In this document: piece after piece, positions 7,460 through 26,099 of the stretch | Layout: each line of letters starts with the position of its first letter | Numbering within the stretch: the stretch's first letter is position 1 | Source of the DNA: Escherichia coli | Lineage (GTDB): Bacteria > Pseudomonadota > Gammaproteobacteria > Enterobacterales > Enterobacteriaceae | DNA length: 64,000 bases | Assembly: GCF_030013595.1 (NCBI RefSeq) | Contig: NZ_CP122768.1 | Strand: one strand, 5' to 3' | Program-made: the position numbers and the translations under genes | The notes under the pieces: model-generated | Told to the model about the DNA's origin: nothing | Databases searched by the model: none | The model's input: the letters and a program-made list of their open reading frames with translations, nothing else

Positions 7460-7544
<85 letters not shown>

Positions 7545-7579
7545 TCTCAAGCATTACCTCAAAATTTGAATTACCCCGT

Positions 7580-7648
<69 letters not shown>

Positions 7649-7664
<16 letters not shown>

Positions 7665-8205
7665 TCACTTTCAAAAGTCCGTGAACTCTCAAACGAATCC
7701 GCGATTAAATATTCTGCCCATGCGGGGAAGGATGAGAAGCTTCGACCAAGGTTCGACTCGAGCGCCAGCGAGAGAGCGTGGCCGCAGGCAACGACCCGAA
7801 GGGCGAAGCGCGCAGCGCTGAGTAATCCTTCCCCCACCACCATCACTTTCAAAAGTCCCTGAACTCTCAAACGAATCCGTAATTAAATATTCTGCCCAAG
7901 CGGGGAAGGATGAGAAGCTTCGACCAAGGTTCGACTCGAGCGCCAGCGAGAGAGCGTTGCCGCAGGCAACGACCCGAAGGGCGAAGCGCGCAGCGCTGAG
8001 TAATCCTTCCCCCACCACCATCACTTTTCAAAAGTCCGTGAACTCTCAAACGAATCCGCAATTAAATATTCTGCCCATGCGGGGAAGGATGAGAAGCTTC
8101 GACCAAGGTGCGACTCGAGCGCCAGCGAGAAAGCGTTGCCGCAGGCAACGACCCGAAGGGTGAAGCGCGCAGCGCTGAGTAATCCTTCCCCCACCACCAT
8201 CACTT
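7649..8205 (+). repeat. Three and a bit tandem copies of a 178-bp repeat at the 3' end of the tyrT-tyrV operon (rtT/tpr region)
   Basis: Unit starts at 7649, 7827, 8005 and partial at 8184, each beginning with the tRNA 3'-end-like ccttcccccaccaccatcac; units differ by a few substitutions. Confidence 0.9.
7732..7821 (+). CDS. tpr: Protamine-like small protein Tpr (29 aa) encoded inside first 178-bp repeat
   Basis: ATG 7732 to TGA 7819-7821 encodes [29 protein letters not shown], Arg-rich; matches my recollection of the 29-aa Tpr; paralogous ORFs in repeats 2 and 3. Confidence 0.35.
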
Positions 8206-22939: not shown

Positions 22940-24040
22940 ATGTCAAATGCTCAAGAGGCGGTAAAAACCCGCCACAAGGAGACTTCGCTTATTTTCCCGG
23001 TTCTGGCGCTGGTAGTGCTGTTCCTGTGGGGAAGCAGCCAGACACTACCAGTGGTCATTGGCATCAATCTTCTTGCTCTTATTGGTATTTTAAGTAGCGC
23101 CTTTAGTGTTGTCCGTCATGCGGACGTATTAGCCCATCGCCTGGGAGAACCTTACGGTTCGCTTATTCTTAGCCTTTCAGTGGTTATTCTTGAAGTCAGT
23201 TTGATTTCAGCTTTAATGGCAACCGGCGACGCCGCGCCAACGCTAATGCGTGATACGCTCTATTCAATCATTATGATTGTTACCGGTGCGCTGGTTGGCT
23301 TTTCATTATTGTTGGGCGGACGCAAGTTTGCCACCCAATATATGAATCTGTTTGGTATCAAGCAGTATTTAATTGCGCTGTTCCCCCTGGCGATAATCGT
23401 ACTGGTATTTCCAATGGCTCTGCCTGCGGCGAATTTTTCAACCGGTCAGGCGTTACTGGTAGCATTAATTTCTGCGGCAATGTATGGCGTATTTTTGCTG
23501 ATCCAGACCAAAACGCATCAAAGTTTATTTGTCTACGAGCACGAAGATGACAGTGATGATGACGACCCGCACCACGGTAAACCGTCTGCCCATAGCAGCC
23601 TTTGGCATGCTATCTGGTTGATTGTCCATCTGATTGCCGTTATTGCAGTCACCAAAATGAACGCCAGCCCGCTGGAGACATTGCTCGACAGCATGAATGC
23701 CCCTGTCGCCTTTACTGGCTTCCTGGTAGCTCTGTTGATTCTGTCGCCGGAAGGTTTAGGTGCGTTAAAAGCAGTGTTGAACAACCAGGTCCAGCGCGCG
23801 ATGAATCTGTTCTTTGGTTCAGTGTTAGCAACCATTTCGCTTACCGTACCTGTCGTCACGCTAATTGCCTTTATGACGGGTAACGAATTGCAGTTTGCAC
23901 TTGGTGCGCCAGAAATGGTGGTGATGGTGGCCTCTTTAGTGCTGTGCCATATCTCCTTCTCCACCGGACGTACTAACGTGCTCAATGGCGCAGCGCATCT
24001 CGCACTGTTTGCCGCCTATTTGATGACGATATTTGCCTGA
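22940..24040 (+). CDS. chaA: Ca2+/H+ (Na+/H+) antiporter
   Basis: ATG 22940 (MSNAQEAVKTRHKE) gives 366 aa polytopic CaCA-family protein; ORF-track start 22853 is an extension. Confidence 0.93.
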   Translation: MSNAQEAVKTRHKETSLIFPVLALVVLFLWGSSQTLPVVIGINLLALIGILSSAFSVVRHADVLAHRLGEPYGSLILSLSVVILEVSLISALMATGDAAPTLMRDTLYSIIMIVTGALVGFSLLLGGRKFATQYMNLFGIKQYLIALFPLAIIVLVFPMALPAANFSTGQALLVALISAAMYGVFLLIQTKTHQSLFVYEHEDDSDDDDPHHGKPSAHSSLWHAIWLIVHLIAVIAVTKMNASPLETLLDSMNAPVAFTGFLVALLILSPEGLGALKAVLNNQVQRAMNLFFGSVLATISLTVPVVTLIAFMTGNELQFALGAPEMVVMVASLVLCHISFSTGRTNVLNGAAHLALFAAYLMTIFA

Positions 24041-24445
24041 CAGATATATCTCCTCCGATGACAGAAATCGGGGGAGATAATATAAATTCCTGCTTATTGT
24101 ATTTCTTCATACTACCTGAACAGGTTGTTAATCAGAATTGCGAGCCTGTACCAGAACCTGCACGAAACCACTGCAACAGCTGTTGAAAAGCCGGAATGTA
24201 CTCTTTATTGCAAACATTTCAGGGATGAAGTGAAGATGAATTGAGACGTAGTATCCACACCAAGCCGGCGTTATCCGGTGAGGCGCAATGTTGCGGGGGC
24301 TTTATCCCTGGTGGCATTGGTTGCTGGAAAGAGAAAACCCCCGCACGTTGAGAGGTAAAACCTGACAACAGAACGGGGGCTAATCTTGAACCATCAACAA
24401 TTCAAGAATAGCCGCAAAATGTTGTCATTACAACAAGGCGGCTAT

Positions 24446-24553
24446 ATGACGCTCGCGCAGTTTGCCATGATTTTCTGGCACGACCTGGCAGCACCGATCC
24501 TGGCGGGAATTATTACCGCAGCGATTGTCAGCTGGTGGCGTAACCGGAAGTAA
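24446..24553 (+). CDS. ldrA: Ldr-family small toxic peptide (35 aa)
   Basis: ATG to TAA encodes MTLAQFAMIFWHDLAAPILAGIITAAIVSWWRNRK, single TM helix; matches Ldr toxin family. Confidence 0.8.
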   Translation: MTLAQFAMIFWHDLAAPILAGIITAAIVSWWRNRK

Positions 24554-24602
24554 GGTGAAAACGGGCGTCAGGCTGCCGTGATGGCAATATGCGCCCGAAA
24601 CC

Positions 24603-24635
24603 GGCCGCAGGGGTAACAGCCTGCGGCCTTTTTTG
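24603..24635 (+). terminator. Rho-independent terminator of ldr transcript (copy 1)
   Basis: ggccgcagg-ggtaacag-cctgcggcc followed by T6. Confidence 0.75.
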
Positions 24636-24980
24636 TCTTTATCTCTTCCACAAGTAAATATTGGCAACCCGAGCTGGAAGCATCATCCAGAGCACTCATG
24701 AAACGACTGTAACAGCTGTTGAAAAACCGGAATGCACTCTTCATTGCATACATTTCAGGGATGAAGTGAAGATGAATTGAGTCGTAGTATCCACACCAAG
24801 CCGGCGTTATCCGGTGAGGCGCAATGTTGCGGGGGCTCTATCCCTGGTGGCATTGGTTGCTGGAAAGAGAAAACCCCCGCACGTTGAGAGGTATAACCTG
24901 ACAACAGAACGGGGGCTAATCTTGAACCAGAACAATTCAAGAATAGCCGCAAAATGTTGTCATTACAACAAGGCGGCTAT

Positions 24981-25151
24981 ATGACGCTCACGCAGTTTGC
25001 CATGACTTTCTGGCACGACCTGGCAGCACCGATCCTGGCGGGAATTATTACCGCAGCGATTGTCAGCTGGTGGCGTAACCGGAAGCAAGGTGAAAACGGG
25101 CGTCAGGCTGCCGTGATGGCAATATGCGCCCGAAACCGGCCGCAGGAGTAA
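24981..25151 (+). CDS. Ldr-family toxin variant with stop codon replaced by CAA (56 aa read-through form)
   Basis: MTLTQFAMTFWHDLAAPILAGIITAAIVSWWRNRK followed by Q (CAA at 25086-25088 where copy 1 has TAA) and 20 further codons through the terminator hairpin. Confidence 0.6.
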   Translation: MTLTQFAMTFWHDLAAPILAGIITAAIVSWWRNRKQGENGRQAAVMAICARNRPQE

Positions 25152-25170
25152 CAGCCTGCGGCCTTTTTTG
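25138..25170 (+). terminator. Rho-independent terminator of ldr transcript (copy 2)
   Basis: ggccgcagg-agtaacag-cctgcggcc followed by T6. Confidence 0.75.
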
Positions 25171-25183
25171 TATCCGGCCCCAT

Positions 25184-25221
25184 GAAAAAAGCCTTAACGC
25201 AGAACGCTAAGGCTTTAGTTT
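25184..25221 (-). terminator. Probable terminator of kdsA
   Basis: Imperfect inverted repeat gccttaacgc...gctaaggc with flanking T/A runs just downstream of kdsA stop. Confidence 0.45.
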
Positions 25222-25235
25222 TCAAGCAAAAAAGA

Positions 25236-26099
<864 letters not shown>

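What the first reader, a model, noticed from the sequence alone, without database searches (positions are those of the whole stretch)
24165..25175. Tandem ldr/rdl type I toxin-antitoxin repeats between chaA and kdsA: two copies here
Two nearly identical ~475-bp units, each with a small hydrophobic toxin ORF and a strong terminator, are arranged head to tail. K-12 is described as having three such long direct repeats at this locus (ldrABC/rdlABC), so copy number differs, consistent with recombination between repeats. The antisense Rdl RNAs are expected on the opposite strand in the 5' part of each unit, but I could not place their ends from sequence alone.
Basis: partly seen in the sequence, partly recalled or inferred. 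Interest (0 to 1): 0.3.

Follow-up and report, generated by a model that had tools for sequence, protein, structure and literature searches.

The report
Two ldr/rdl toxin-antitoxin repeats, one stop-less
This is the well-known E. coli ldr/rdl small-toxin/antisense-RNA repeat between chaA and kdsA, here in two copies, which is a common natural variant; the only unusual detail is that the second toxin gene has lost its stop codon.

Summary
Two head-to-tail LDR units lie between chaA and kdsA, with a period of 535/536 bp and ~476-bp cores about 95% identical. Each unit has a Pfam Ldr_toxin ORF, an intrinsic terminator, and a full-length Rfam rdlD match on the minus strand (24397->24332 and 24933->24868), 49 nt upstream of the toxin ATG. 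K-12 has three units at 535-bp spacing; unit 1 here resembles K-12 ldrC and unit 2 resembles ldrA.

Two copies is ordinary. In 59 complete E. coli genomes taken at even steps down the hit ranking, intergenic length indicates 3 copies in 26, 2 copies in 17-18 and 1 copy in 12-14. The nearest complete genomes carry the same two-copy structure, so assembly collapse is unlikely.

The kdsA-proximal toxin gene has TAA->CAA at 25086. It now reads as 56 codons and ends at a TAA in the terminator loop. This allele occurs in only 2 of 5,426 complete E. coli genomes, and PGAP calls it a pseudogene. The extension crosses a 3'UTR segment predicted to pair with the toxin's ribosome-binding region (conserved pairing, little covariation). 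Any functional effect is untested.

Verdict: already known, low interest.

The parts
22940..24040 (+). chaA (Na+/K+:H+ antiporter), left flank of the array
   Evidence: ORF. The RefSeq annotation of the near-identical genome maps to these coordinates.
24160..24636 (+). LDR unit 1 conserved core (most like the K-12 LDR-C unit)
   Evidence: 474/485 identical to the K-12 ldrC unit.
24249..24254 (+). -10-like hexamer TAGTAT for ldr-1 (inferred promoter element; TSS inferred near 24261)
   Evidence: Strong conservation with K-12 LDR-D starts here, and LDR-D has TAGAAT at this position. The consensus promoter scan found nothing, so this is inference only.
24332..24397 (-). rdl-1 antisense antitoxin RNA (66 nt)
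   Evidence: Rfam RF01813, 83.6 bits, gathering score 50, model positions 1-66. Folds at -27.3 kcal/mol, z = -4.5.
24405..24433 (-). Inferred rdl-1 promoter: -35 TTGTAA (24433->24428), 17-nt spacer, -10 TATTCT (24410->24405), 7 nt before the Rdl 5' end
   Evidence: Read from the sequence. The block is conserved in all units compared. It matches 8/12 consensus positions, below the scan threshold. Inferred.
24386..24445 (+). Leader reading frame of unit 1: TTG with a GGGGG Shine-Dalgarno-like run 6 nt upstream, inside the Rdl-complementary stretch. Here it is in frame with ldr, giving a 55-codon fused ORF.
   Evidence: The allele is present in 2816 of 5426 genomes.
24446..24553 (+). ldr-1 toxin gene, 35 aa, identical to K-12 LdrA/LdrC
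   Evidence: translation; PF13940, 86 bits; WP_000170955.1.
24603..24636 (+). ldr-1 intrinsic terminator (9-bp stem, 8-nt loop, T6)
24696..25171 (+). LDR unit 2 conserved core (most like the K-12 LDR-A unit)
   Evidence: 475/484 identical to the K-12 ldrA unit.
24785..24790 (+). -10-like hexamer TAGTAT for ldr-2 (inferred; TSS inferred near 24797)
   Evidence: Same position as in unit 1. Inferred.
24868..24933 (-). rdl-2 antisense antitoxin RNA (66 nt)
   Evidence: Rfam RF01813, 87.0 bits. Folds at -26.7 kcal/mol, z = -5.3.
24940..24968 (-). Inferred rdl-2 promoter (-35 TTGTAA 24968->24963; -10 TATTCT 24945->24940)
   Evidence: Same block as unit 1. Inferred.
24922..24984 (+). ldrX-like leader ORF of unit 2 (TTG, 20 codons). 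Its TGA stop overlaps the ldr ATG (ATGA).
   Evidence: K-12 units A, B and C have the same arrangement. The ldrX hypothesis is described in PMC4147584 and PMC8167048.
24981..25151 (+). ldr-2 toxin ORF with its stop codon lost: a 35-aa Ldr core (A4T, I9T relative to LdrA) plus a 21-aa read-through tail, QGENGRQAAVMAICARNRPQE
   Evidence: PF13940, 85.3 bits over residues 1-35. PGAP marks the same sequence as a pseudogene 'missing C-terminus'.
25086..25088 (+). Former stop codon, TAA->CAA (T->C at 25086)
   Evidence: Strain ST2747 differs at this site, carrying T at 25086. The allele is found in 2 of 5426 complete genomes.
25138..25171 (+). ldr-2 intrinsic terminator. The new stop codon (25149-25151) sits in its loop.
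   Evidence: and the sequence.
25236..26090 (-). kdsA, right flank of the array (convergent with ldr)

Best explanation
The region is the chromosomal LDR (long direct repeat) array of E. coli. It holds two tandem ldr/rdl type I toxin-antitoxin modules between chaA and kdsA. Each unit makes a structured ldr mRNA of about 375 nt that encodes a small membrane toxin, and from the opposite strand a 66-nt Rdl RNA. Rdl is complementary to the ldr 5'UTR, 49-114 nt upstream of the toxin AUG. It covers a leader start codon (TTG with a GGGGG Shine-Dalgarno-like run) but not the toxin's own ribosome-binding site. Rdl pairing is thought to block leader translation, and so toxin translation, and the resulting duplex is an RNase III substrate. 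The two-copy state is a normal species polymorphism (1, 2 or 3 units) produced by unequal homologous recombination between the 535-bp repeats. It is not an anomaly relative to K-12. The kdsA-proximal toxin gene carries a recent, lineage-specific T->C change that removes its stop codon. If translated, it yields a 56-aa Ldr with a hydrophilic C-terminal tail. All its regulatory parts are intact, so it is most likely still a repressed and possibly still toxic module.

Shown here: the repeat structure, the family matches, the Rdl positions, the terminators, synteny, the copy-number spread and the rarity of the stop-loss allele. Inferred: the promoters and transcription start sites, the mode of repression, the recombination origin and the activity of the extended toxin.
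For: Repeat structure. Toxin family: PF13940 at 86 and 85 bits, and LdrD structure 5LBJ at E = 1.6e-9. Antitoxin: RF01813 at 83.6 and 87 bits, full length on the minus strand, with stable hairpins at z = -4.5 and -5.3. Terminators. Synteny and naming. Copy-number spread among 59 genomes sampled down the ranking: 3 copies in 26, 2 copies in 17 (+1 with IS200C), 1 copy in 12 (+2 with IS200C). The same chaA-ldr-kdsA synteny holds with 2 tandem units in Escherichia whittamii and Escherichia sp. E1V33, and with 1 unit in Pseudocitrobacter. Stop-loss allele: found in 2 of 5426 genomes; it is one of only three differences from ST2747 over 1351 bp. The window is a third, closely related genome, 99.9% identical over 25 kb against 99.2% for the next nearest. 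[quoted passage not shown] C-terminally FLAG-tagged LdrA keeps full toxicity (PMC12643268).
Against: Nothing contradicts the identification. The weak points are these. No expression data were available. The consensus promoter scan found no sigma-70 site, so both promoters are inferred. The copy-number distribution comes from intergenic length in a ranking-spread sample, not a random one. The repression mechanism is still called unknown or hypothetical in reviews (PMC8309996). The frame of the leader ORF relative to ldr differs between the two units, so strict stop/start coupling cannot be the universal mechanism. PGAP treats ldr-2 as a pseudogene.
Confidence: 0.93

Rival explanations
1. Only unit 1 is a working toxin-antitoxin pair. 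Unit 2 is a fresh pseudogene whose read-through product is non-toxic or unstable, which leaves Rdl-2 as an orphan antisense RNA.
For: PGAP annotates the identical sequence as an incomplete pseudogene. The allele is very rare, 2 of 5426 genomes, so it is not maintained by selection. Sporadic stop-loss and frameshifted Ldr variants occur elsewhere in the protein collection, as expected for mutational noise. The stop codon now lies in the terminator loop, so translating ribosomes would melt the protective 3' hairpin.
Against: The 35-aa Ldr core is intact (PF13940, 85.3 bits). A C-terminal FLAG tag leaves LdrA fully toxic (PMC12643268), and the C terminus is predicted to be cytoplasmic (PMC8309996). 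The Rdl-2 match, the leader ORF, the toxin's ribosome-binding region and the terminator are all intact.
Confidence: 0.35
2. The two-copy array is an assembly collapse of a true three-copy array like that of K-12.
For: Near-identical 535-bp tandem repeats are a classic target for collapse in short-read assemblies. Three copies is the most frequent state in the sample.
Against: The same 1351-bp two-copy structure, differing by only 1-5 bases, is present in many independent complete genomes, including the closest relatives. About 30% of sampled complete genomes have the two-copy length. The two units differ at more than 20 positions and each matches a distinct K-12 unit, with no chimeric junction.
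Confidence: 0.03
3. The C at 25086 is a sequencing or consensus error and the toxin gene is a normal 35-codon ldr.
For: It is a single transition. The two database genomes that share it come from one study, have near-identical lengths, and are probably one clone.
Against: The window is not either of those records: it is 99.9%, not 100%, identical over 25 kb, and it differs from HCP5S3_I2 at 24337. The base therefore appears in at least two separate assemblies. The sequence context is not a homopolymer.
Confidence: 0.04

Closest known systems
ldrA/rdlA, ldrB/rdlB, ldrC/rdlC of E. coli K-12 (LDR-A, -B, -C; Kawano et al. 2002)
   Same: Same locus (chaA-kdsA) and orientation, same 535-bp period, same toxin (unit 1 is identical to LdrA/LdrC), and the same Rdl position and terminator.
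   Different: Two units instead of three. Unit 1 has a 1-nt insertion in the leader and Rdl 5' tail. The unit 2 toxin has A4T and I9T and has lost its stop codon.
ldrD/rdlD (LDR-D, near bcsG-yhjV in K-12), the experimentally studied member
   Same: Homologous over the whole transcribed region. The 5'UTR, Rdl, the toxin's ribosome-binding region and the 3'UTR are nearly invariant, while the coding region diverges. The solved LdrD structure 5LBJ matches at E = 1.6e-9.
   Different: Single copy at another locus. The sequence upstream of the -10 region is unrelated. In LDR-D the leader frame is in frame with ldrD.
hok/sok (mok leader, fold-back inhibition)
   Same: A long 5'UTR, with the antisense RNA aimed at a leader start rather than at the toxin's RBS. 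The predicted 5'-3' and RBS-3'UTR pairing resembles the closed hok mRNA (reviews PMC4147584 and PMC8167048).
   Different: Unrelated toxin family. The Rfam sok model scores only 27-30 bits against a gathering score of 59 on the ldr 5'UTR. 3' processing of ldr mRNA has not been shown.
ibs/sib tandem type I toxin-antitoxin repeats
   Same: Tandemly duplicated in one intergenic region, with lineage-specific copy number and cis-encoded antisense RNA. Differences between copies are concentrated in the likely recognition parts of the antisense RNA (PMC2887945, PMC2943612; by eye).
   Different: Sib overlaps the whole ibs ORF, whereas Rdl overlaps only the 5'UTR. The toxins are unrelated.

Membership tests
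Ldr/Rdl type I toxin-antitoxin (LDR repeat) | Toxin matches the Ldr toxin family (35-aa membrane peptide with the conserved W and a basic C terminus) | tested here: met
   PF13940 at 86.0 bits (unit 1) and 85.3 bits (unit 2) against a cutoff of 27, covering profile positions 1-35. LdrD structure 5LBJ at E = 1.6e-9.
Ldr/Rdl type I toxin-antitoxin (LDR repeat) | Toxin ORF is 35 codons and ends at its own stop codon | tested here: inconclusive
   Met for unit 1 (24446-24553). Not met for unit 2, where TAA->CAA extends the ORF to 56 codons. Unit 2 is a mutated member, not a different family.
Ldr/Rdl type I toxin-antitoxin (LDR repeat) | Cis-encoded antisense Rdl RNA of about 60-66 nt | tested here: met
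   RF01813 at 83.6 and 87.0 bits against a gathering score of 50, full length on the minus strand in both units.
Ldr/Rdl type I toxin-antitoxin (LDR repeat) | Rdl overlaps the ldr 5'UTR and not the toxin's RBS or start codon | tested here: met
   The Rdl 5' ends at 24397 and 24933 lie 49 and 48 nt upstream of the toxin ATGs at 24446 and 24981, the same offset as the K-12 annotation.
Ldr/Rdl type I toxin-antitoxin (LDR repeat) | Repeat unit of about 530 bp, in tandem between chaA and kdsA | tested here: met
   Spacing of 535/536 bp, flanked by chaA and kdsA. K-12 spacing is 535 bp.
Ldr/Rdl type I toxin-antitoxin (LDR repeat) | Toxicity of Ldr and its neutralisation by the cognate Rdl | not testable with these tools
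   Known for LdrD/RdlD and LdrA from the literature (PMC4147584, PMC8309996, PMC12643268). Not tested for these alleles.
Ldr/Rdl type I toxin-antitoxin (LDR repeat) | Both transcripts are expressed (stable ldr mRNA, unstable Rdl) | not testable with these tools
   No transcript data. The promoters are only inferred.
hok/sok-like regulation (leader-ORF coupling plus closed mRNA) | Leader ORF whose start lies in the antisense target and whose end overlaps the toxin start | tested here: inconclusive
   Unit 2 and K-12 units A, B and C have a 20-codon TTG ORF ending in ATGA. Unit 1 and LDR-D have the same TTG in frame with the toxin instead. The in-frame allele is in 52% of genomes.
hok/sok-like regulation (leader-ORF coupling plus closed mRNA) | Long-range pairing that sequesters the toxin's ribosome-binding region | tested here: inconclusive
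   RNAalifold on 17 sequences recovers the helices. Cells paired: 97.8% against 31-50% for slid controls. One pair shows two independent compensatory changes, but most pairs are invariant.

The most novel reading that the evidence does not exclude
The stop-loss allele of ldr-2 may be more than a dead gene. Its 21-codon read-through runs along the 3' strand of the helices predicted to clamp the mRNA 5' end and the toxin's ribosome-binding region (SD and AUG) to the 3'UTR, and it ends in the terminator loop. The first ribosome to finish the ORF would then open the ribosome-binding region for following ribosomes and melt the protective 3' hairpin. That would change how leaky, or how short-lived, this toxin message is. 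If so, the allele is a natural mutant that tests the still-unresolved ldr/rdl control mechanism.
Probability: 0.2. Interest if true: 0.35.

Novelty: already known. Interest (0 to 1): 0.12.

Why it matters
It matters little beyond annotation. The locus should be annotated as two ldr/rdl modules, with the Rdl genes at 24332-24397 and 24868-24933 on the minus strand. The second toxin should be flagged as a stop-loss variant. Two modest points may interest people who work on type I toxin-antitoxin systems. First, LDR copy number at chaA-kdsA is a three-state polymorphism in E. coli, and K-12's three copies are only the most frequent state in the sample. Second, this lineage carries a natural read-through allele that could be used to test whether the ldr 3'UTR controls toxin translation, since reviews still describe the mechanism as unknown.

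Tried and rejected
- Tandem Repeats Finder returned nothing. Its period limit is 500, so this is uninformative; the repeat finder and direct alignment were used instead.
- The consensus sigma-70 scan found no promoter in 24000-25260. The promoters given are weaker matches (8/12 for rdl), placed by position and conservation, and are marked as inferred.
- Rfam 'sok' hits on the plus strand of both 5'UTRs (27-30 bits against a gathering score of 59) were rejected as family membership.
- The junction-query search could not give copy number cleanly, because the query's terminator part also matches terminal units. It was replaced by the flanking-gene span method.
- The covariation test on unit 1, unit 2 and LDR-D alone was uninformative with three sequences. 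It was repeated on 17 sequences.
- The 16-mer scan of genome contigs gave 56 loci, of which about 45 are chance matches in unrelated phyla. Only the Escherichia, Pseudocitrobacter and Citrobacter loci were used, and no Salmonella locus was recovered.
- The Kawano 2012 review, which may already describe the ldr mRNA fold, could not be retrieved.
- The idea that the unit 1 leader frame fusion is a peculiarity of this strain was rejected: the allele is in 52% of genomes.

Full report
**What is in the sequence**

The stretch between the end of chaA (24040) and the end of the convergent kdsA (25236) contains two head-to-tail copies of one unit. The repeat finder reports start-to-start spacings of 536 and 535 bp. 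Alignment shows ~476-bp cores, 24160-24636 and 24696-25171, that are 462/485 identical. The cores are separated by about 59 bp, which in unit 1 is replaced by sequence unique to the chaA flank. A repeat of this length and identity cannot arise by chance. TRF missed it only because its maximum period is 500.

**Identity of the parts**

- Each unit has a small ORF that matches Pfam Ldr_toxin over its whole 35-position profile, at 86.0 and 85.3 bits against a cutoff of 27.
- The unit 1 peptide is identical to K-12 LdrA/LdrC. The solved LdrD structure 5LBJ is the only PDB match.
- Each ORF is followed by a 9-bp GC-rich hairpin and a T tract.
- On the minus strand, Rfam's rdlD model matches end to end at 24397->24332 (83.6 bits) and 24933->24868 (87.0 bits), against a gathering score of 50.
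- Both Rdl RNAs fold into the expected long hairpin, with z-scores of -4.5 and -5.3.
- The Rdl 5' ends lie 49 and 48 nt upstream of the toxin ATGs, the same offset as in the K-12 annotation. The antisense RNAs lie opposite the ldr 5'UTR, which is the middle of each repeated core.

**Comparison with K-12 and the species**

K-12 MG1655 has chaA, ldrC/rdlC, ldrB/rdlB, ldrA/rdlA and kdsA, at 535-bp spacing. Unit 1 here is closest to the ldrC unit (474/485 in the core, and it shares the chaA flank). Unit 2 is closest to the ldrA unit (475/484). A site-by-site comparison shows no obvious chimeric junction.

To see how unusual two copies is, I joined 2.5 kb of the chaA side to 2.5 kb of the kdsA side and read the intergenic length from the span of the matches. 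The matches were 59 complete genomes taken at even steps down the ranking.

| State inferred from intergenic length | Genomes |
|---|---|
| Three-copy length | 26 |
| Two-copy length | 17, plus 1 with an IS200C insertion |
| One-copy length | 12, plus 2 with IS200C |
| Odd length (2229 bp) | 1 |

The rows show O157:H7 genomes at two copies and K-12 derivatives at three. This sample is ranking-spread and classified by length only, so the fractions are rough. It is still clear that two copies is one of three common states.

The same chaA-ldr-kdsA synteny occurs outside E. coli. There are two tandem units in Escherichia whittamii and Escherichia sp. E1V33, and one unit in Pseudocitrobacter. Unequal recombination between the repeats is the natural explanation, but it is an inference.

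Assembly collapse is unlikely. The identical two-copy structure, with 1-5 differences over 1351 bp, is present in many independent complete genomes.

In unit 2 the toxin stop codon is CAA (25086-25088). The frame continues for 21 more codons to a TAA at 25149-25151, which sits in the loop of the terminator hairpin. Strain ST2747 has T at this site, and it differs from the window at only three positions in 1351 bp.

I used a 51-nt query centred on the C, so that a 28-nt seed cannot avoid it. It found the allele in only 2 of 5,426 complete E. coli genomes. Both are pig isolates from one study, and PGAP labels the gene as an incomplete pseudogene. The window is not either record. It is 99.9% identical over 25 kb, it differs from HCP5S3_I2 at 24337, and the next genomes are at 99.2%. 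The allele is therefore real and marks a lineage.

Other rare stop-loss Ldr proteins with the same 3'UTR-encoded tail exist in the large protein collection, for example a 56-aa LdrA-type and a 56-aa LdrD-type with stop->Tyr. This is a recurrent kind of mutation.

Whether the 56-aa product is toxic is unknown. A C-terminal FLAG tag leaves LdrA fully toxic (PMC12643268), whereas an N-terminal tag abolishes toxicity (PMC8309996). A C-terminal tail is therefore not necessarily inactivating.

**How the module most likely works**

From the literature:
- Ldr overproduction kills the cell or arrests growth, and Rdl counteracts it.
- Rdl overlaps the 5'UTR, not the ribosome-binding site.
- A leader ORF, ldrX, has been proposed to couple Rdl binding to toxin translation, as mok does for hok. 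This is unproven (PMC4147584, PMC8167048, PMC8309996).
- The ldrD-rdlD duplex is recovered as an RNase III product (PMC7373196).

In this window a TTG preceded by GGGGG lies inside the Rdl-complementary stretch in both units. In unit 2, as in K-12 units A, B and C, it opens a 20-codon ORF whose TGA overlaps the toxin ATG (ATGA). In unit 1 a 1-nt insertion puts the same TTG in frame with ldr, giving a 55-codon fused ORF. LDR-D is also in frame. The unit 1 allele is in 2816 of 5426 genomes. If leader translation matters, it probably acts by opening structure rather than by strict stop/start coupling. This is my inference.

The promoters are also inferred. For rdl there is a TTGTAA-17-TATTCT match ending 6-7 nt before the Rdl 5' end. 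For ldr there is a TAGTAT -10-like hexamer at the point where conservation with LDR-D begins (TAGAAT in LDR-D). The consensus scan found nothing.

**mRNA structure**

The inferred ~376-nt ldr mRNAs fold far better than shuffled controls, with z-scores of -5.6 and -7.0. In the fold, the 5' end and the SD/AUG region pair with the 3'UTR just after the stop codon.

I collected 17 ldr mRNA regions from E. coli, E. whittamii, Escherichia sp. E1V33, Pseudocitrobacter and Citrobacter sedlakii. On these:
- RNAalifold recovers the same long-range helices on its own.
- 97.8% of cells are paired, against 31-50% when the partners are slid.
- One pair changes A-U to G-C in one sequence and to U-A in another.
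- The covariation score exceeds all 500 shuffles.

Most pairs never vary, so the support is modest. The strong conservation of both UTRs relative to the coding region points the same way. I could not check whether this fold is already published, because the Kawano 2012 review is not held.

The unit 2 read-through runs exactly along the 3' strand of these helices and into the terminator. That is the basis of the speculative 'novel case'.

**Verdict**

The finding is correct and ordinary. It is a known type I toxin-antitoxin repeat in a common copy-number state. The stop-less second toxin gene is a small, rare twist whose consequence is untested.

Noticed in passing
window 24386-24553, with the insertion at about 24393: A 1-nt insertion in unit 1 (CCATCAAC against CC-AGAAC) puts the leader TTG in frame with ldr, giving a 55-codon fused ORF. 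In unit 2 and in K-12 units A, B and C, the leader is a separate 20-codon ORF ending in ATGA. The in-frame allele is in 2816 of 5426 complete E. coli genomes, including CFT073 and O157:H7, and LDR-D is also in frame. This argues against strict stop/start coupling in the ldrX model.
   Followed up: partly
window 24261-24637 and 24797-25173 (alignment A3): The predicted ldr mRNA fold pairs the 5' end and the SD/AUG region with the 3'UTR just after the stop codon, like the closed hok mRNA. It is recovered by RNAalifold on 17 sequences from 4 genera. Cells paired are 97.8%, and one pair has two independent compensatory changes. Most pairs are invariant.
   Followed up: partly
window 24332-24397 and 24868-24933: Differences between Rdl copies, both here and across species, cluster in the apical loop (about 24358 and 24894) and in the first 5-6 nt of the 5' tail. 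The stems are invariant. This suggests that these parts set cognate specificity, as in Sib/Ibs.
   Followed up: no
window 24295-24448 and 24831-24983, plus strand: Sub-threshold Rfam 'sok' (RF01794) matches lie on the ldr 5'UTR and end at the toxin AUG (27 and 30 bits against a gathering score of 59, E = 0.0036 and 0.0005). They are probably chance or a loose structural resemblance.
   Followed up: no
window 7460-8199: Two tRNA-Tyr(GTA) genes (7460-7544 and 7580-7664) are followed by three RtT repeats (7711-7842, 7889-8020 and 8068-8199; Rfam RF00391 at 131-137 bits). This is another tandem-repeat locus in the same window, consistent with the tyrT-tyrV operon.
   Followed up: no
chaA-kdsA intergenic region in other genomes (hits H95, H96 and H97): Some E. 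coli genomes carry an IS200C transposase annotation under the match. Their intergenic lengths of 1371 or 1906 bp equal one or two LDR units plus about 710 bp.
   Followed up: no
window 24337, compared with L001 (HCP5S3_I2): The only difference from the closest database genome over 1351 bp is A against C at the A4/C5 boundary of the Rdl-1 terminator tail. In HCP5S3_I2 this shortens the Rdl-1 U tract from UUUU to UUU. It could be a real SNP or a homopolymer error in that assembly.
   Followed up: no
L039 5137-5670 (Escherichia sp. E1V33) and L044 5467-6021 (E. whittamii): Two other Escherichia species also have two tandem ldr/rdl units between chaA and kdsA (spacings 518 and 539 bp), while Pseudocitrobacter has one. 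Duplication at this locus is either old or recurrent.
   Followed up: partly
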